IMG/VR virus record: IMGVR_UViG_2529293138_000009
Coordinates: 1 to 20,832 of that record
DNA: 20,832 nt
Reading direction: 5' to 3' (one strand)
Origin: a virus
Lineage: Duplodnaviria > Heunggongvirae > Uroviricota > Caudoviricetes
Shown here: one piece after another, positions 6,001 to 12,000 of the stretch
Numbering within the stretch: position 1 is the stretch's first letter
Layout of the letters: each line of letters starts with the position of its first letter
Program-made: the position numbers

Positions 6001-9000
6001 CCGTCTTTTCCTGTGGCGGGTTCTGTTGCTGGTGGATGTGAGGCAACGGCGCAAGATTTTTTGTGCGCTGCTTCAGTATGCTGGTGGCTGTCTGCTCTCC
6101 CGGTACGATGTCGCTCTCGCGGTACACAGAGCGGATTTTTTCCGCACGTAACCCCAGAGAACGACGTAATACTGCCTCCGGTAGTGCGTCCGCTACCTGA
6201 TTGCAGACCGCCCACCAGGATAATTCAGCCAGCGATAATTCCCGTTCCTGTGTACCGCTTATTGCGTGACGTATGACGTCAATCATCCAGGCTGTCAGAT
6301 TTTGTTGAGCAAGCTGCCCGAGTGATTCGGAGGTCTGGTCACGCAGCTGGTTGTCACAATGCCAGCACAACACCATCGCACCGGTGCCGTAACGATGTAT
6401 GACGGTTTCACTGTGATGGTAGTCACCATGAGGGCACTGGCAGGATTTAACATGACGCAGGAGCCAGTCAGACAGTGCACCAGCGCCGCCGGCAGCACGA
6501 ATCACCCGATCATCGCTGAAAAATGGCAGTAATGATTTGTCTTCCGCCAGCGGCTGGCGAACGGCAGAAACGACTCCGGACGGTAAACCACGCATGCTTT
6601 TTGGTTCCGGCTCCACCAGCACTCGAGAGTTATGAAATACCTGCATGGATTCACGGCCCGGCTTAAGAACCACCAGCCCAAGTTCCGGTACCGGAACAGG
6701 TCGAAGCAATACCCGCACGTTACCTCCAGATGCGTTGCTGGAATGTGCGGGACGGACGCGGTGGGCGTTCGGAATAAGGGAGTCTGACGTAGATTATCCA
6801 GTGACGATAATCAAGGCTGAGGGCTTTCCTAAACTCATACCCACGTCTGCGGTAGTTCTGAATCAGCCATTCGGCCTGTTCTTCAGTGCAGGGGTCATGC
6901 TGATACCAGTCATATTTGAATGTGTGAGAACGCCGCCCGTGCCTGCTGGCAAAGACGGCTGTATTATCAGAATTGTATAATTTGGTATCGTGCGCCATCG
7001 GTTGTCTCTGCTGGCGCAGCAGGTGCCAGTTGTTCAGGCTGGCATGTGGATTGTAAACCAAGATGCTCAGAAAAAACAAAACCCGCTAAAGCGGGTTTTG
7101 TCAGTACTGAATATCAAGCTGCGTGCTTGCCACTACAACTGCAAAGTGGGATCGGGAAAGGCTTCCCTTTTTTCGCGTGGCGTATTACACCATCTACACA
7201 CACAGAGTAGCGAAAAATGATCTCACATGGACAGCCACATTTGCGACAGGTACCCATTGCCATGATTTCGTTTTCCCTGCTCACCTGTGAATCCACACAG
7301 GTTGCACTTTGTTGGGAGAACCACTACACTTCGCTTACCTACAAAAAATGTTGTGATTGGATTATCTCCATACACTACGGAATGTGTTAGCGCACTTTCC
7401 GCCCCTAAAAGCCCTGTTAGCGCAGGGCTTTTACATATAAAAATCGAACGACATCTGTTGTGTTCTCACTCCAATTGTTTCCAGTACGATATCCGCAAAT
7501 GTATCTGCCTGCCATTCTGCATCCTCAATACGAGTAGGTTCTTTAGCTGAAAAGTGTAAAACTGCTTTGTGTCCAAGAAGCAAATGACCTAGCTCGTGGA
7601 AGATAACAGCAAGTGCATGCTCTTCCCCAAGGCAAGCATTCACATATATTTTATTGGGAACCGTAATTGTTAGAGAAGCGGGGTCACAATGTCCGATAGT
7701 TAGATCATACGTCAGAGCCTCCCACTCCTTGTCGGTCCTGACGTCAAGAGTAACCCCATAAATTGAAAGGCTTTCAAAGAACATATCATAACGCTTTCTT
7801 TTGCGCTTTGAGGCTGTAAGACCAATAGCATTACAGAAGTTTATAGCTCTGTAGGCTATTTCTTCTTCTTGCATCGGTGACACCCTGTTACCTCTCATTT
7901 GATACATAATTACCCCTCATTGTTATTAATCTTTTGCAATAAATCTGCAAAACTCTTTAGCTGTTCCGGAGTAAACTGCGACTTAGCGAATCCCGCTACA
8001 AGCATTTTCTGTTGCTGAGACAAACCGTTTACTGGAACTGAGTCATTCGCAACTGCCGCTAACTCCTGTAACCCTTCAATTTCTACACCTTTGGCCTTGA
8101 AGTAAGAATCAATCTTCTTAACCCACTTCAGAGGTATTTTTTTGCTACCAGTTTCTAAACCGCTAAGAAACGCTGGCGAAGTGCCCAGTTCTTGAGACAT
8201 AGTCAGAAGAGTACTGTCAGTATCAATCCTCGCTTTTCTAACGGCCTTACCGAATTCAGTGAGTGCCATGATTTTATCCTCAATTTGTTGATTTAGCAGA
8301 CTTGCCTAACGCAAGCCTGATGGGCGCTTAAATTCTAATTTCTAAAATTTACCATACACAAAAACAAAGTAAACCTTTTTAGTTAAAAAAAATCTCTTTT
8401 AAGGGAATTTTTTCACAAAAAGAACAAAACCCGCCGAAGCGGGTTAAGTGTGGGTGCATTGAGGATGCCTGACACATCAGAGGTGGCGAGGGATTTCTCC
8501 CCCGCCTGGTCTCTTACTCCTCAGGTTCGTAAGCTGTGAAGACAGCGACCTCCGTCTGGCCGGTTCGGATTCGTACCTCGCAGAGGTCTTTCCTCGTTAC
8601 CAGTGCCGTCACTATGACGGTTAAACAGATGACGATCAGGGCGATTAGCATCGCCTTTTGCTGCTTCATAGCCTGCTTCTCCTTGCCTTTCGGCACGTAA
8701 GAGGCTAACCTACATGTGTTCAGCATGGATTGAGCCTCAGATTAATGTTAAGCGTCTTGCCGGACGCGTAATGTTAACTGGGGCTTTTCTCTGTCTGCCT
8801 TACAGTGGCATGCCCGAGGCAGACAGCCTCAAGCACCCGCAGCCATTCTACTTAACTCCCGTTACCTCGCCAACATGAAATCAATCAGAAAGGCGAACCA
8901 TAAGAACAATAACATCAATTAAATTCATTTTCTCAAATCCTGTTAACGACGCCCATCCGACACTAACAACTTTCATTTATTATACTATTTCCCCATCGAC

Positions 9001-12000
9001 GCTCTGCGTTGGCATAACACAAATCTGTCTGTCCGTTTGGGTAAAGAGCGGATATCTGCAGTTTCAAAGAAACTGCGCATGCGCACGAACTATCAAAGAT
9101 AGTGATAACTGAGATAAAAACATATGGAAGCCTTCGGCATTTAAAAATAACAGCAAATCATATAAAAGGAAAGAGATAAGCAACATTTACATAACATGTA
9201 TCACGATACGCCCCAGTGTTAATAAAAGGACTATCACTTTATTCTTTTATAATGTTAGTTTGCACTAGCAAGTGCCACTCCGAACAGAAAAAGGATACAT
9301 GTAATGAAGCTACAGCAATTTAATGTTAAAAATTACAAGTCGATAAAAGATGAAATAGAAGTATATATCGATGATATAGTTGTGCTAATTGGTCCAAATA
9401 ACTCTGGAAAGTCAACAATATTAGATGCGTATGAAAAGTTTGCATCTTTAGGATCAGCAAAAGGCCTGACTGCTCATGATTTTTATAACTCAGATATATC
9501 TATACCAATTGAAATGTGCGGAATTTTCACTGATATCACTGATGATGATATTCGTACATTAGGGGGAGAGAAATGGTTTTATAAAGATGATGCTCTTGAC
9601 AGAAGAAATATGGCAAGAAAGTATGGGGGAGATTGGGAGAAAAATAATACACCATTGGAAAGCAAACTCTATTATTGTGTTAAATGGGTTTGGTCACATC
9701 CAGAAAAAGCAGCCCAAAAACAATCCTATGGCCTTGATGATGCCTCTGGCAAACGCATATTTATTGATGGGGGCTCTGGGGGACTTGACACACTACTACA
9801 AAGCCGAGTTCCTCAACCAATAAGAATAAGCCCAGATAAATCCATGGATGAAACTAAAAAAATTATCATAAGTTTCTTAAAGGAAGATGCAAAAGATGAG
9901 TTACTGAAAACAGGGGAAAGTAAAGCTGATATAATACAGAAAATACAAGAGTTGACAGACACTCTTATGAAAGATTCCAAATCAAAAATCGATGATCTTC
10001 TACAGCAGGTCTCCAAATCATCATCATCTGTTTTTCCTGGGCTAGAACTGGAATTAAACATACTTTCCAAGGATCCCGTAGATGCGGATGTTATGGTTTC
10101 AGAATCTAACCTTACAGTGAAAATGGATGGGATAAATAGCTCTCTTCTCGAGAACCAAGGTCACGGTGTTCGCCGCTCCGTTTTATGGTCTGCTTTGCAA
10201 ATTTTGACTCACGAATCTCATGCACGAGATAAAATAAAAAAAGCGAAAGGTAAGCCTATCTCTGTTGAGAAAAAACAATATATTTTATTGATTGATGAGC
10301 CTGAATCATTTCTTCACCCTCCTATAATTAGAAGTGCGAGGGACTCGCTTTATGATTTTGCAGCAAACAATGATAACTGGCAGGTGATGGCTACAACACA
10401 CTCCCCTGTATTCATAGACTTATCCAAGAAGCACACGACTATAATTAGGATAGAAAAAGACAAATCTCTAAATAAAACAATATCTACAGATGAACTATCT
10501 TTTTCTGAAGAGGAAAAAGATAATATGAAAATGATAAGATTATGTAACCCAATGGTTAATGAGTTTTTCTTTTACGACAATATAATATTAGTTGAAGGCC
10601 CAACTGAAAAAATCGTCATTAACAAAATATGTGATATTGTCGGAGTTGATTATCATATAATTGACTGTTTAGGAAAAGGGAATATAAAAACATTTGCTAA
10701 AATATTAAATCAATTTAACGTTGAGTATATAGCAGTACATGACTCCGACATTCCAAAATGCTTAAAGCAAGGAAGCGTTTCAGGTAATGGAGCATGGGGT
10801 TCAAATGTATCCATAATGAACGAATGCTCTAAAAGTAAAAAACCAATGGTATTTATTCAAATACCTCATTTCGAAGGACTGTTTTTTAAAAATTTCAATC
10901 CATCAAACAAAGTTGAAACAGTAACATCAGTTCTATCTAATAATTTAACACCAGAATATAAAGCAATTTTTGATACATATAGCAGAATCTTAAACAAAGA
11001 TCCATCTGTTTTTATCAGCTCCAACGAAAAAATGATAGACATGTATCATGTATTTTATGCCAGTAATAAAAACCAAATTGAAACGCTAAAAAATCCTGAA
11101 ATCTGGATCCTTTAATTTTTAATGTTGTAATAAATATTATTTAGTAACAACCCTCTATTGAGGGTTGTTTTTAATCATAAGAAATCTGACACACTCTATC
11201 ATACTAAAAATAACACAACATGCATACAAAGTGTTTATATGCATAGACATATTACCTCACATCTGAGTCAATACACTTTAATTTCATTTACCGAACCAAT
11301 TTCTTATTACTGGCATGATAAAAGTTCAACACACGCCGCATAACTTCGCTCTTCCGGCACTCGCGACAGATTATGTTTAGACGCCTGTCATAGCGACGTA
11401 TTTCTCCGTCAGGTAATGACCAGATAAGGTCCGGATCAACCACAACCGGTTTCTTCAGCTTTGCCCTCGATAATTTTTTGCGGGCATTTTGCCAGTCTTT
11501 ACGAGCCTGTTCAGACGGGAATAACCCGTAGCCAGAATTGTATACATCGCCACTGGCAACCAGCTCTCTGGCGAGAACACTCATCAGATATCTTGTCGCA
11601 CCTGTTTTCGCTTCCAGTTGTCGTAACGTCTCGCGCCCTCTCTGGCGCACGAGTTCAACAACCTGCCTCTTAATTTTTTCCCGCTCTTCTTGTGTAAATA
11701 CTTTTGCCACAAGTCCTCCTGAAAATTACCTCATGACCTGAAATAAACACTTACCCCCTGAAGCCCGGTGGAATTTCGGTATCCGGTTCAGAAATATGAT
11801 TCACACAACGCTGGTTGTTCGTGCCGCTTACCGGGAGCAGCCAGGGGTTTTCAAAATTCCGGTCCGGTCCAAAAAACGTCGCCGCTCGCTGAACAAATTC
11901 CGTTCCCGTTTTCCCGGTAGCCGCCAGGTATCTTGCGTAACGCCTCACGCCATCCAGCATGGCCTCTGGTGACACCCCCTCGCGTAATCTGGCCTTCCAG

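What the first reader, a model, noticed from the sequence alone, without database searches (positions are those of the whole stretch)
7431..11175. Accessory island between the replication module and the nin-like genes: HTH/ImmA pair, hok and OLD nuclease, each with its own terminator
Three unrelated cargo units sit back to back where a lambdoid phage would run straight from replication genes into the nin genes. Each has its own rho-independent terminator (7407-7432, 8420-8445, 11146-11173), and the OLD-family unit and the region around hok are AT-rich. Such clustering of independently transcribed cargo is characteristic of prophage defense hotspots, and the units may function together.
Basis: inference. 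Interest (0 to 1): 0.5.

Follow-up and report, generated by a model that had tools for sequence, protein, structure and literature searches.

The report
Variable defence-gene hotspot around prophage hok
In this Shiga-toxin (Stx1d) prophage, the stretch between the replication genes and the late-gene regulator is a swap site: related phages carry dozens of different cargo sets here, about a third of them recognisable anti-phage genes, and this copy holds a rare OLD nuclease plus an uncharacterised three-gene repressor/protease/zinc-protein module.

Summary
The genes are real, and the core reading, a variable accessory/defence hotspot, holds. The anatomy needs correcting.

The site has two independently varying slots flanking a hok/sok locus kept by nearly all relatives.
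- **Slot A (8881-11287)** holds a stand-alone class-1-like OLD nuclease. This cassette occurs in only 4 of 5426 complete E. coli genomes.
- **Slot B (about 7075-8445)** holds a three-gene module, not an HTH/ImmA pair: XRE repressor, M78 peptidase, and a conserved 49-aa Cys-rich protein that annotators usually miss. It has its own conserved promoter/operator and terminator. It occurs in 56 genomes.
- No complete genome has both cassettes.

In an unselected set of IMG/VR relatives, slot A had 32 different contents in 60 loci. These include dCTP deaminase, a CBASS-like pair, KwaB, 3HP and PDC candidates. Slot B was empty, held rem, or held one of five other cargo types; across all loci compared, its cargoes include RosmerTA and Doc cassettes.

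All nine slot-B cargo types begin at the hok terminator hairpin. Five are bracketed by a 13-23-bp duplicate of it.

I found no evidence that the three units work together. Each occurs without the others, and both cassettes also occur in other mobile elements.

This is a new member of a known kind, comparable to the P2/P4 prophage hotspots. Interest is moderate.

The parts
6720..6998 (-). Conserved 92-aa hypothetical gene (phrog_1212). It is the late-side flank of slot B and is followed by DUF968 (5669-6718), RusA and Q.
   Evidence: It is found next to slot B in 82 of the 92 loci compared.
7075..7102 (-). Strong intrinsic terminator that ends the three-gene module. It is the left copy of the duplicated hok-terminator hairpin (repeat about 7071-7097).
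   Evidence: -26.5 kcal/mol, z -8.3; for the duplication. A copy follows the small gene in every lambdoid copy of the module checked.
7114..7263 (-). 49-aa Cys-rich small protein (invariant C6, C9, C13, C22, C41, C43), the third gene of the module. RefSeq left it unannotated in the relatives L002 and L003.
   Evidence: Conserved in Klebsiella and Yersinia homologues. Differences by codon position are 153/115/483, i.e. mostly at third positions. The AF2 model is all-beta with pLDDT 78, and there is no significant PDB fold match.
7407..7432 (-). Conserved hairpin directly after the ImmA stop codon and inside the module. It may act as an attenuator or processing site; it is a weak terminator.
   Evidence: z -3.0. 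The stem is invariant in the alignment while the loop differs and the T tract is lost in the Klebsiella-phage copy.
7431..7907 (-). ImmA/IrrE-type M78 metallopeptidase (HELGH motif). The ORF is 158 aa; RefSeq starts it at 147 aa.
   Evidence: Pfam PF06114 1.1e-5; phrog_87 metallo-protease 7.5e-17; PADLOC capP and RmrA hits are only weak.
7910..8269 (-). XRE-family HTH protein of 119 aa, made of an N-terminal HTH and a C-terminal extension of about 50 aa. It is the presumed autorepressor.
   Evidence: Pfam HTH_31 is below its cut-off. PADLOC HTH_VI 4.7e-7 and capH 0.0036. It is always adjacent to ImmA.
8346..8386 (-). Promoter and operator of the module. The palindrome TTAACTAAAAAGGTTTAC lies at 8369-8386 and overlaps the -35 element (8368-8373). 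The extended -10 element is at 8346-8351.
   Evidence: This is the conserved block in an alignment of six diverged homologues from E. coli, Klebsiella, Yersinia and other lambdoid backbones. The promoter assignment was read from the sequence and is an inference.
8419..8445 (-). hok terminator hairpin (stem 8428-8445). It is the right copy of the direct repeat and the junction at which every slot-B cargo type begins.
8446..8880 (-). hok/sok type I toxin-antitoxin core: mokD ORF 8514-8726, hokD 8514-8669 and the leader/sok region 8664-8838. This is the conserved landmark between the two slots.
   Evidence: Pfam HOK_GEF 3e-23; Rfam RF01794 at 116.9 bits; 93-98% nucleotide identity in 91 related loci.
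8881..9303 (+). AT-rich region upstream of OLD (GC 0.37), which presumably holds its promoter. This is the hok-side edge of slot A.
   Evidence: Homology with relatives that carry other cargo ends at 8874-8909. GC. No strong promoter consensus was found.
9304..11115 (+). Stand-alone OLD-family ATPase/TOPRIM nuclease of 603 aa, transcribed against the phage early operon.
   Evidence: Motifs read directly from the translation: Walker A GPNNSGKS, Walker B LLIDEPE, TOPRIM VEGPTE and DSD.
11149..11170 (+). Terminator-like hairpin 34 nt after the OLD stop codon.
   Evidence: -17.4 kcal/mol, z -4.9; the consensus scan did not list it.
11288..11710 (-). DUF977 gene, named 'Ren-like exclusion protein' in PHROGs. 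It is the replication-side flank of slot A.
   Evidence: Pfam DUF977 1e-26; phrog_142 8.7e-45.

Best explanation
Window 7075-11287 is a two-slot accessory-gene ('moron'/defence) hotspot of Rac/Qin-like lambdoid phages, here in a Stx1d-converting prophage. A hok/sok locus kept by nearly all relatives sits between the Ren-like DUF977 gene and the hyp92-DUF968-RusA-Q genes. The DNA on either side of it is exchanged freely among related phages.

**Slot A** in this copy carries a stand-alone, class-1-like OLD ATPase/TOPRIM nuclease. It has its own AT-rich upstream region and terminator and points against early phage transcription. It most likely acts in the lysogen as a P2-Old-type exclusion or abortive-infection nuclease against superinfecting phages. 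This is inferred.

**Slot B** carries a self-contained operon: XRE repressor, M78 peptidase, an internal hairpin, a 49-aa Cys-rich protein and a terminator. By analogy with ImmR/ImmA, DdrO/IrrE and CapH/CapP, the repressor probably shuts off the operon at a conserved palindrome over its -35 element. The peptidase would cleave the repressor on a damage or infection signal, and the small protein would be the output. This is inferred and its target is unknown.

**hok/sok** is a resident type I toxin-antitoxin (post-segregational killing, and possibly abortive infection).

The three units are functionally independent. Slot-B cassettes enter and leave by recombination at the hok terminator hairpin, which leaves a duplicated hairpin around the cargo. 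The structure is shown; the mechanism is inferred.
For: **Variability**
- No complete E. coli genome holds 80% or more of 7000-11400 or of 5669-12827, although about 4839 of 5426 genomes match part of the latter stretch.
- The OLD cassette is in 4 genomes, the module in 56 (48 full-length), and both together in none.
- In unselected IMG/VR loci, slot A has 32 sequence types in 60 loci. Slot B is empty in 24 of 70, holds rem in 35, and holds one of five other types in 11.
- The same slot-A type is found with different slot-B types, so the slots assort independently.

**Defence content**
- PADLOC hits to slot-A cargo include Old, dCTP deaminase (8e-169), a CBASS-like cyclase with a 2TM effector, KwaB (3e-159), Hp1/Hp2 and PDC-S06, -S15, -S39 and -M68B. 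Other hits are PD-Lambda-2_C with cll, an NsnA-like DUF262 protein and SIR2 (weak).
- Slot-B cargo includes RmrT + RmrA (RosmerTA) by PADLOC, plus two toxin-type cargoes not backed by a model hit. The Doc toxin is RefSeq-annotated and gave no PADLOC hit; a HigBA-like pair I judged by eye.
- 21 of the 60 IMG/VR loci fall in PADLOC-positive slot-A types.

**Autonomy**
- OLD homologues of 86-87% identity lie in a P4-like satellite and a P2/186-like prophage, next to the integrase.
- The three-gene module is intact in all 21 IMG/VR loci that cover it, across three lambdoid contexts, and also in Yersinia P2-like prophages.
- Its promoter/operator block is conserved, and the small gene shows a coding substitution pattern.

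**Junctions and lineage**
- The empty site has one hairpin. Five cargo types are flanked by two, and all nine types break at the hairpin end.
- The two sibling Stx1d prophages examined differ at this site.
Against: - No function was tested. The anti-phage roles of OLD, hok/sok and the module are inferences from homology.
- This OLD is only about 30% identical to P2 Old, and only over the TOPRIM part.
- Many slot-A types hold small nin-type genes, QueH, IS elements or metabolic genes rather than recognisable defence genes. The site may therefore be a general mosaic joint that defence genes also use.
- HMM similarity of the module to CapH/CapP or RmrA is weak (E about 1e-3). No solved structure resembles ImmA by sequence, HTH has only marginal hits, and the small protein has no significant fold match.
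- Identical terminator hairpins could partly reflect convergence on a very stable UUCG-loop terminator rather than shared descent.
- The census uses 92 loci. The 80 IMG/VR ones were picked as the best hok matches, and 11 of the other 12 were hand-picked.
Confidence: 0.8

Rival explanations
1. This is ordinary lambdoid mosaicism. The region is just the variable nin/ren joint, where any non-essential gene can be swapped by recombination, and defence genes are incidental passengers rather than the point of the site.
For: - Many slot-A types hold only small DUF551-, DUF4406-, DUF4014- or DUF7167-type genes, QueH, IS66/IS110 elements, NUDIX + HAD genes or an esterase.
- The neighbouring replication module also changes between relatives: DUF1627 + ATP-binding + O in some, replisome organiser + DUF977 in others.
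- The slot-A junction on the hok side is scattered over about 60 bp.
Against: - Sixteen of 38 slot-A types, covering 21 of 60 unselected loci, carry PADLOC-recognised proteins; two of the 16 rest on weak hits and two on a shared KwaB-like ORF.
- Slot-B cargo is dominated by TA or defence-type pairs: RosmerTA, Doc, HigBA-like, and ParDE in one sibling prophage.
- The same OLD lineage occupies recognised P4 and P2 hotspot-type positions elsewhere.
- The two readings are not exclusive.
Confidence: 0.3
2. The three units form one integrated system. For example, the HTH/ImmA switch would regulate OLD and/or hok so that they fire together on infection.
For: They are physically adjacent in this window. 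CapH/CapP-type pairs are known to regulate neighbouring immune operons (abstracts shown).
Against: - None of the 5426 complete genomes has OLD together with the module.
- OLD occurs with an empty slot B (L001, L095). The module occurs with many other slot-A cargoes and in backbones with neither hok nor OLD.
- The module's conserved operator palindrome was seen only in front of its own operon.
- OLD is on the opposite strand, 1 kb away, beyond hok.
Confidence: 0.05
3. The HTH/ImmA module is not defence cargo. It is either an auxiliary induction switch of the prophage (ImmR/ImmA-style anti-repression that links phage development to DNA damage) or a type II TA-like addiction module.
For: - ImmR/ImmA, DdrO/IrrE and phage repressor/protease pairs work this way, and Xre-metalloprotease pairs have been described as TA systems (titles and abstracts, e.g. 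PMC10538038 and PMC8960796).
- The module lies in the early-right operon of lambdoid phages.
- Slot B otherwise often holds TA pairs.
Against: - The prophage has its own repressor/Cro-YdaS/YdaT region at 12893-14086.
- The module is present in only about 1% of E. coli genomes that carry this backbone.
- It moves between unrelated phage types, lambdoid and P2-like, together with its own operator. That fits poorly with regulation of one phage's lysogeny.
- The TA reading is not excluded.
Confidence: 0.25

Closest known systems
P2 and P4 prophage/satellite defence hotspots (Rousset et al. 2022, PMC9122126; NAR 2026, PMC13586616)
   Same: Fixed flanking genes enclose a hypervariable cargo rich in defence systems. 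An OLD nuclease is among the cargoes. Some cargo families are shared, including 3HP (Hp1/Hp2), PD-Lambda-2/cll-type genes and the OLD lineage, which sits at 86-87% identity in a P4-like satellite.
   Different: This site is in lambdoid (Rac/Qin-like, including Stx1d) phages, between the replication and Q modules rather than next to cos. It consists of two slots split by a resident hok/sok locus. One slot has a terminator hairpin as its fixed junction. I found no description of this site in the literature held here.
Phage P2 Old / class 1 OLD nucleases (Thermus scotoductus OLD, PDB 6P74)
   Same: It is a single gene with an N-terminal ABC-type ATPase and a C-terminal TOPRIM domain, with the motifs intact. 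It is carried by a prophage and has no partner helicase. PADLOC Old is the best model (9e-73) and 6P74 the best PDB hit.
   Different: It is only about 30% identical to P2 Old, and only over the TOPRIM part. It belongs to a separate, widespread clade (phrog_4747; 40-49% identity across Proteobacteria, Leptospira and Bacteroidota). Its trigger is unknown; for P2 Old the trigger is RecBCD inhibition.
relBE-hokD locus of the K-12 Qin prophage
   Same: It is the same site. In K-12 the DNA on the replication side of hokD holds relBE, ydfV, flxA and other genes, and slot B holds rem. The insertion of relBE at hokD has been noted before (PMC6379469).
   Different: In K-12 the upstream half of the hok leader/mok region is lost: the hok core matches only from position 198. 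In this window mok, hok and the leader are all intact.
CapH/CapP, ImmR/ImmA and DdrO/IrrE repressor-metallopeptidase switches
   Same: An XRE HTH protein with a C-terminal extension is encoded next to an HExxH M78 peptidase. A palindrome overlaps the operon's own promoter.
   Different: HMM matches to capH and capP are weak (E about 3e-3). In E. coli there is no divergent regulated operon. A conserved third gene, the 49-aa Cys-rich protein, is the only candidate output. The Klebsiella-type copies do face a divergent SppA-like peptidase gene.
RosmerTA (RmrT/RmrA) and PD-Lambda-2
   Same: Both use HTH plus M78 peptidase chemistry in phage defence. A true RosmerTA pair occupies the same slot B in phage Tritos (RmrA 5.5e-102).
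   Different: Here the HTH and the peptidase are separate small proteins. There is no upstream toxin gene, and the match to RmrA is only 9e-4.
Morons of lambdoid phages (Hendrix/Juhala concept; PMC3594210)
   Same: These are independent transcription units with their own promoter and terminator and a deviant base composition. They are present or absent between otherwise similar phages.
   Different: None in kind. This finding adds a defined pair of insertion slots and a hairpin junction.

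Membership tests
Prophage-encoded defence hotspot (sensu P2/P4 hotspots) | Conserved flanking genes shared by many related elements | tested here: met
   DUF977 was found on the replication side in 72 of the 92 loci compared, and hyp92/DUF968 on the other side in 82. The hok core lies between them at 93-98% identity.
Prophage-encoded defence hotspot (sensu P2/P4 hotspots) | High diversity of gene content between the flanks | tested here: met
   Slot A has 32 types in 60 unselected loci. Slot B has 7 states in 70 loci. No complete genome carries the window's combination.
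Prophage-encoded defence hotspot (sensu P2/P4 hotspots) | Enrichment for known defence systems | tested here: inconclusive
   Sixteen of 38 slot-A types have PADLOC hits; two of the 16 rest on weak hits and two on a shared KwaB-like ORF. No background rate for other prophage regions was computed.
Prophage-encoded defence hotspot (sensu P2/P4 hotspots) | Cargo protects against phage when expressed | not testable with these tools
   This needs cloning and phage challenge.
Class 1 OLD nuclease | N-terminal ABC-type ATPase with Walker A and Walker B motifs | tested here: met
   AAA_15 1e-29 over residues 1-371. GPNNSGKS and LLIDEPE were read from the translation.
Class 1 OLD nuclease | C-terminal TOPRIM domain with a catalytic Glu and a DxD motif | tested here: met
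   OLD-like_TOPRIM 2.4e-14. VEGPTE and HDSD align with the 6P74 sequence.
Class 1 OLD nuclease | Stand-alone gene with no adjacent UvrD/PcrA-like helicase (class 2/Gabija), retron (Ec78/PtuAB-type) or AriB partner | tested here: met
   The neighbours are hok and DUF977. Close homologues in L116 and L117 are also solitary. Old is the best PADLOC model, ahead of AriA and GajA.
Class 1 OLD nuclease | ATP-dependent nuclease activity and phage exclusion | not testable with these tools
   This needs biochemistry and phage assays.
hok/sok type I toxin-antitoxin | Hok/Gef toxin ORF with an in-frame upstream mok ORF | tested here: met
   HOK_GEF 3e-23. The 70-codon ORF contains the 51-aa Hok.
hok/sok type I toxin-antitoxin | Structured mRNA leader with the Sok-complementary region | tested here: met
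   Rfam RF01794 at 116.9 bits against a gathering score of 59, full length, ending at the hok ATG.
hok/sok type I toxin-antitoxin | Sok promoter activity and killing on loss | not testable with these tools
   This needs expression assays.
ImmR/ImmA - CapH/CapP type repressor/peptidase switch | XRE HTH protein encoded next to an HExxH M78 (COG2856) peptidase | tested here: met
   The two genes are adjacent in all 21 IMG/VR loci that cover the HTH gene and in the Yersinia loci.
ImmR/ImmA - CapH/CapP type repressor/peptidase switch | Sequence membership in the CapH and CapP families | tested here: not met
   PADLOC capH E = 0.0036 and capP E = 0.0025 only. phmmer finds no PDB relative for ImmA and only marginal hits for HTH.
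ImmR/ImmA - CapH/CapP type repressor/peptidase switch | Operator in the promoter of the regulated operon | tested here: inconclusive
   A conserved palindrome overlaps the putative -35 element in six diverged homologues. Binding was not tested.
ImmR/ImmA - CapH/CapP type repressor/peptidase switch | Signal-dependent cleavage of the repressor | not testable with these tools
   This needs biochemistry.
RosmerTA | RmrA antitoxin with fused HTH and M78 domains, next to an RmrT toxin | tested here: not met
   Here the HTH and the peptidase are separate genes with no RmrT. The RmrA match is 9e-4. A genuine pair in L011 scores 5.5e-102.
Moron | Own promoter and terminator, deviant composition, and presence/absence polymorphism | tested here: met
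   Terminator hairpins, GC 0.34 and 0.42 against 0.52, and presence/absence between relatives. The promoters are inferred only.

The most novel reading that the evidence does not exclude
Two linked possibilities remain open.

1. The XRE-ImmA-49-aa Cys-rich module may be a previously unrecognised, self-contained three-gene phage-conflict system. A repressor/protease sensor would release a tiny zinc-ribbon-like effector. Its third gene has gone largely unannotated: only two protein clusters were found in a 5.8-billion-sequence database.

2. The hok terminator hairpin may serve as a recombination site for promoter-to-terminator cassettes. Short-homology recombination, perhaps by the phage's own recombination functions, would then shuffle terminator-bracketed cargo among phages in an integron-like way.
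Probability: 0.25. Interest if true: 0.65.

Novelty: new member of a known kind. Interest (0 to 1): 0.45.

Why it matters
- Hotspots in P2 phages and P4 satellites have been productive places to find new anti-phage systems. This site offers the same opportunity in the far more numerous Rac/Qin-like lambdoid prophages of E. coli, including Shiga-toxin phages, and it has sharply defined anchors (DUF977, hok/sok, hyp92/DUF968).
- Several cargo types seen here have no match to defence models and are ready candidates. Examples are a 484-aa protein, a 495-aa P-loop protein, two two-gene sets and the three-gene module.
- For STEC biology, it shows that otherwise near-identical Stx1d phages differ in the exclusion genes they give their host. 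That may shape which other phages can coexist with them.
- The hairpin-bracketed cassettes give a concrete, testable clue to how morons move.

Tried and rejected
- **Small-protein fold.** The AF2 model (pLDDT 78, all-beta) gave no Foldseek PDB match with E below 4, so the fold says nothing about function.
- **Solved-structure relatives.** The sequence search against solved structures found nothing for ImmA and only marginal hits for HTH.
- **Source contig.** Looking up contigs that encode the exact OLD protein returned only a 2.7-kb contig, so it says nothing about the combination seen here.
- **Other RNAs.** A permissive Rfam search of 6900-11400 found only the hok leader. Sub-threshold isrK/Rsm-like hits were caused by the terminator hairpins and I rejected them.
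- **Terminator enrichment.** The consensus scan found no more terminator-like sites than shuffles did. I dropped 'more terminators than chance' as an argument.
- **Cassette flanks.** The OLD flanks (promoter, terminator) do not travel with the gene to Serratia or Yersinia; DNA homology stops 18 nt before the ATG. I rejected the idea of a conserved portable OLD cassette across genera.
- **Literature.** Seven searches found no description of this lambdoid hotspot. Absence from the held library does not prove that it is unpublished.
- **OLD class.** I considered filing OLD under Gabija, PARIS or a retron effector. I rejected this because there is no partner gene and those models score lower.

Full report
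**What the window is**

The window is part of a lambdoid prophage whose early-right and late genes run on the minus strand. The gene order is:
- Cro/YdaS-like (13315-13617) and YdaT-like (12893-13318)
- replisome organiser (11751-12827) and DUF977 (11288-11710)
- the region under study
- a 92-aa gene (6720-6998), DUF968 (5669-6718), RusA (5285-5656) and Q (4924-5295)
- a CPBP/Rce1-like protease (3955-4779), then stxA (2221-3177) and stxB (1942-2211)
- the lysis genes

The toxin genes are Stx1d. Four complete E. coli genomes share window 1-7000 at about 97% and annotate stxA1d/stxB1d there. DicF (16379-16430) marks the Qin/Rac-like left arm.

**Checking the observation**

- The XRE HTH protein lies at 7910-8269(-). 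Pfam HTH_31 is below its cut-off; PADLOC HTH_VI scores 4.7e-7.
- The M78 peptidase lies at 7431-7907(-) (Pfam 1.1e-5, above the gathering score; HELGH motif).
- mok/hok lies at 8514-8726(-) (HOK_GEF 3e-23). The structured hok leader/sok region is at 8664-8838 (Rfam 116.9 bits).
- The OLD-family protein lies at 9304-11115(+) (AAA_15 1e-29, OLD-like TOPRIM 2.4e-14, PADLOC Old 9.2e-73).

The three hairpins fold as stated, with z-scores of -3.0, -2.4 and -4.9 against shuffles. The consensus scan, however, found no more terminator-like sites in 6000-13000 than in shuffled sequence (7 against 6.2 +/- 2.7).

Base composition is as claimed for OLD (GC 0.34) and, more mildly, for the HTH/ImmA DNA (0.42). 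It is not as claimed for hok (0.53). The backbone on both sides is 0.52.

**Real boundaries**

I aligned the window to three E. coli relatives.
- A relative with OLD but no HTH/ImmA (L001) matches the window up to 7097 and again from 8419. A 27-bp stretch of L001 matches both ends.
- Relatives with HTH/ImmA but other cargo in place of OLD (L002, L003) match up to 8909 or 8874 and again from 11316 or 11331.

So there are two separate variable segments. Slot B is about 7098-8418 plus its bracketing hairpins. Slot A is about 8881-11287. A conserved hok/sok core (8446-8880) lies between them.

**Slot B is a three-gene module**

Between the ImmA stop codon and a very strong terminator (7075-7102; -26.5 kcal/mol, z -8.3) lies an ORF whose last 49 codons (7114-7263) are conserved.
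- Homologues exist in Klebsiella phage ST13-OXA48phi12.4, in IMG/VR lambdoid contigs and in Yersinia.
- Across seven homologues, differences fall 153/115/483 on codon positions 1/2/3. Six cysteines are invariant. It is therefore a real gene, and RefSeq left it unannotated in the relatives L002 and L003.
- A search of 5.8 billion proteins found only two clusters, one of which is a 49-aa Yersinia protein.
- All 21 IMG/VR loci that cover the whole module carry HTH, ImmA and the small gene together.
- These loci fall into three contexts. One is beside hok in E. coli. One follows the replication genes of another lambdoid backbone that lacks hok. The third is a Klebsiella-type phage, where the HTH gene faces a divergent SppA-like peptidase.
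- In Yersinia the module sits beside the integrase of P2-like prophages.

Upstream of the HTH gene, six diverged homologues share one block. It contains the palindrome TTAAC(C/T)AAAAAGGTTTAC (window 8369-8386). This overlaps a plausible -35 element, followed 16 nt later by an extended -10 element.

The hairpin after ImmA keeps its stem but loses its T tract in the Klebsiella-phage copy. I read it as an internal element of the operon rather than a unit boundary.

The AF2 model of the small protein is an all-beta mini-domain (pLDDT 78) with no significant PDB neighbour.

**OLD**

The protein has an intact Walker A motif (GPNNSGKS), Walker B motif (LLIDEPE) and TOPRIM acidic residues (VEGPTE, DSD).
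- Its best solved relative is the class 1 OLD of Thermus scotoductus (6P74, 2.3e-16), ahead of GajA at about 4e-7.
- No helicase, retron or AriB-like gene is adjacent.
- It is only about 30% identical to P2 Old, and only over the TOPRIM part. It is 41% identical to a Rhizobium phage protein.
- It belongs to a broad clade of solitary proteins, mostly 560-600 aa long (phrog_4747; 40-49% identity across many phyla).
- Homologues at 86-87% identity lie in a P4-like satellite of Serratia marcescens and next to the integrase of a P2/186-like prophage of Yersinia ruckeri. DNA homology there stops 18 nt before the ATG, so the flanking promoter and terminator are local to the E. coli cassette.

**Is the site variable?**

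It is, very much so.
- About 4839 of 5426 complete E. coli genomes match part of the backbone stretch 5669-12827, and none holds 80% or more of it.
- The module cassette is in 56 genomes (48 full-length, 98-99% identity). The OLD cassette is in 4 genomes (99.3% identity). No genome has both.
- RefSeq annotation of representative loci shows varied slot-A cargo. Examples are SMODS + SLATT, FRG, DUF262, DUF4209 and QueH + KwaB-like + relBE (the K-12 Qin arrangement), as well as small nin-type genes.
- Slot B in those loci is empty or holds rem, a 130-aa lipoprotein-like gene, Doc plus a small gene, or the module.
- Isolated phages share the layout, including Evi, Tritos, mEp460 and the vB_Eco series. 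Tritos carries a true RosmerTA pair in slot B.

For an unselected sample I fetched the 80 IMG/VR loci that best match Hok, and clustered the two intervals.
- Slot A gave 32 sequence types in 60 loci.
- Slot B was empty in 24 of 70 loci, held rem in 35, and held one of five other types in 11.
- The same slot-A type occurs with different slot-B types, so the slots vary independently.

PADLOC recognised proteins in 16 of the 38 slot-A types found across all loci compared, which cover 21 of the 60 unselected loci. Two of the 16 rest on weak hits, and two were counted because they share the KwaB-like ORF of a tested type. The hits are:
- Old, dCTP deaminase (7.9e-169), CBASS-type cyclase with a 2TM effector, and KwaB
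- Hp1/Hp2 (3HP) and PDC-S06, -S15, -S39 and -M68B
- PD-Lambda-2_C with cll, and an NsnA-like DUF262 protein
- weak SIR2 and LmuA-like hits

Several large cargo proteins had no hit.

Of the four Stx1d prophages that share the late region, I examined two, and they differ here. RM8082 has two hypothetical genes in slot B and small genes in slot A. Strain 2014C-3075 has a ParDE pair where hok would be.

**Junction structure**

At an empty slot B, the hok terminator hairpin (AAAACCCGCCGAAGCGGGTT) occurs once and is followed directly by the hyp92 flank. In the window, in L002/L003 (the module) and in the Doc, RosmerTA and lipoprotein cassettes, the cargo lies between two copies of this hairpin. The duplicated stretch is 13-23 bp long, and up to 27 bp in the window. 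In all nine cargo types the hok-side junction falls at the end of the hairpin.

The module carries the same hairpin at its 3' end in every lambdoid context checked.

This is the footprint expected if a cassette carrying one hairpin recombines with the resident hairpin. No recombinase is encoded in the cassettes. I infer short-homology recombination by host or phage functions, but did not test it. Convergence on a very stable UUCG-loop terminator may contribute to the sequence identity.

The slot-A junction on the hok side is scattered over about 60 bp, so that slot shows no comparable fixed site.

**How it most likely works**

What is shown:
- the anatomy of the region
- the independence and mobility of the units
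- the variability of the site
- the defence-type content of many alternative cargoes

What is inferred:
- OLD is expressed in the lysogen from its own promoter, antisense to the early operon, and acts as an exclusion or abortive-infection nuclease, as P2 Old does.
- hok/sok stabilises the element and may abort infection.
- The module is an autorepressed operon that ImmA-mediated cleavage of the HTH protein derepresses on a damage or infection signal. The Cys-rich protein would be its output.

I found no evidence for coupling among the three units.

**Comparison with what is known**

The closest described systems are the P2 and P4 hotspots (PMC9122126, PMC13586616), which also hold old. The K-12 relBE-hokD arrangement is a degraded instance of the same site, and the insertion of relBE at hokD has been noted before (PMC6379469). 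I found no paper in the held library that describes this lambdoid two-slot hotspot.

I rate it a new member of a known kind. The three-gene module and the hairpin junction are its least ordinary parts.

Noticed in passing
window 1942-3177 (-): The window encodes Shiga toxin: an A subunit (RIP domain, 3.9e-37) at 2221-3177 and a B subunit (SLT_beta, 6.3e-47) at 1942-2211. The closest complete genomes annotate these genes as Stx1d. The window is therefore from an Stx1d-converting prophage.
   Followed up: partly
window 3955-4779 (-), with AT-rich DNA at 3000-4800: A CPBP/Rce1-like intramembrane protease gene (PF02517, 6.8e-20) sits in AT-rich DNA (GC 0.30-0.39) between Q and stx. This looks like another moron position, and it is shared by the Stx1d prophages.
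   Followed up: no
window 1669-1861 (-) and 16379-16430 (+): Rfam finds STnc100 (64 bits) just downstream of stxB, and DicF (76.7 bits) in the left arm.
   Followed up: no
L010 5278-6475; L028-L034 about 3245-4290: In Klebsiella-type phages the HTH gene of the three-gene module faces a divergent pair: a 71-aa gene and a 331-aa SppA/S49-like peptidase. This arrangement is conserved in 7 IMG/VR loci. It is a CapH/CapP-like layout and may show what the module regulates there.
   Followed up: partly
L024 2664-4426: A RosmerTA-like pair lies immediately upstream of the three-gene module in another lambdoid backbone. It consists of a 222-aa protein and a 365-aa fused HTH-M78 protein. I judged this by eye and did not scan it against any model.
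   Followed up: no
Slot A of L065, L041, L075 and L104 (IMG/VR loci): Four cargo types have large ORFs with no PADLOC hit: a 484-aa protein, a 495-aa P-loop-like protein, a 370 + 333-aa pair and a 234 + 365-aa pair. They occupy the same slot as known defence genes and are candidate new systems.
   Followed up: partly
L123 15118-15680: In the Stx1d prophage of strain 2014C-3075, a ParD/ParE pair on the opposite strand occupies the place of hok/sok. The 'conserved' anchor can therefore itself be replaced by another TA system.
   Followed up: no
L116 6001-7812; L117 6001-7812: The same OLD lineage (86-87% aa identity) is carried by a P4-like satellite in Serratia marcescens and by a P2/186-like prophage in Yersinia ruckeri. 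Only the coding sequence is shared at the DNA level.
   Followed up: yes
Slot A of 16 of the 60 IMG/VR loci (types A01 and A02), and L008 7839-8504: The commonest slot-A cargo is a QueH-like epoxyqueuosine reductase gene. This may relate to queuosine or 7-deazaguanine metabolism, but I did not examine it.
   Followed up: no
L118 1738-3396: In one Yersinia P2-like prophage, a 552-aa reverse transcriptase fused to a trypsin-like protease lies beside the integrase. The integrase separates it from the three-gene module about 1.6 kb away.
   Followed up: no
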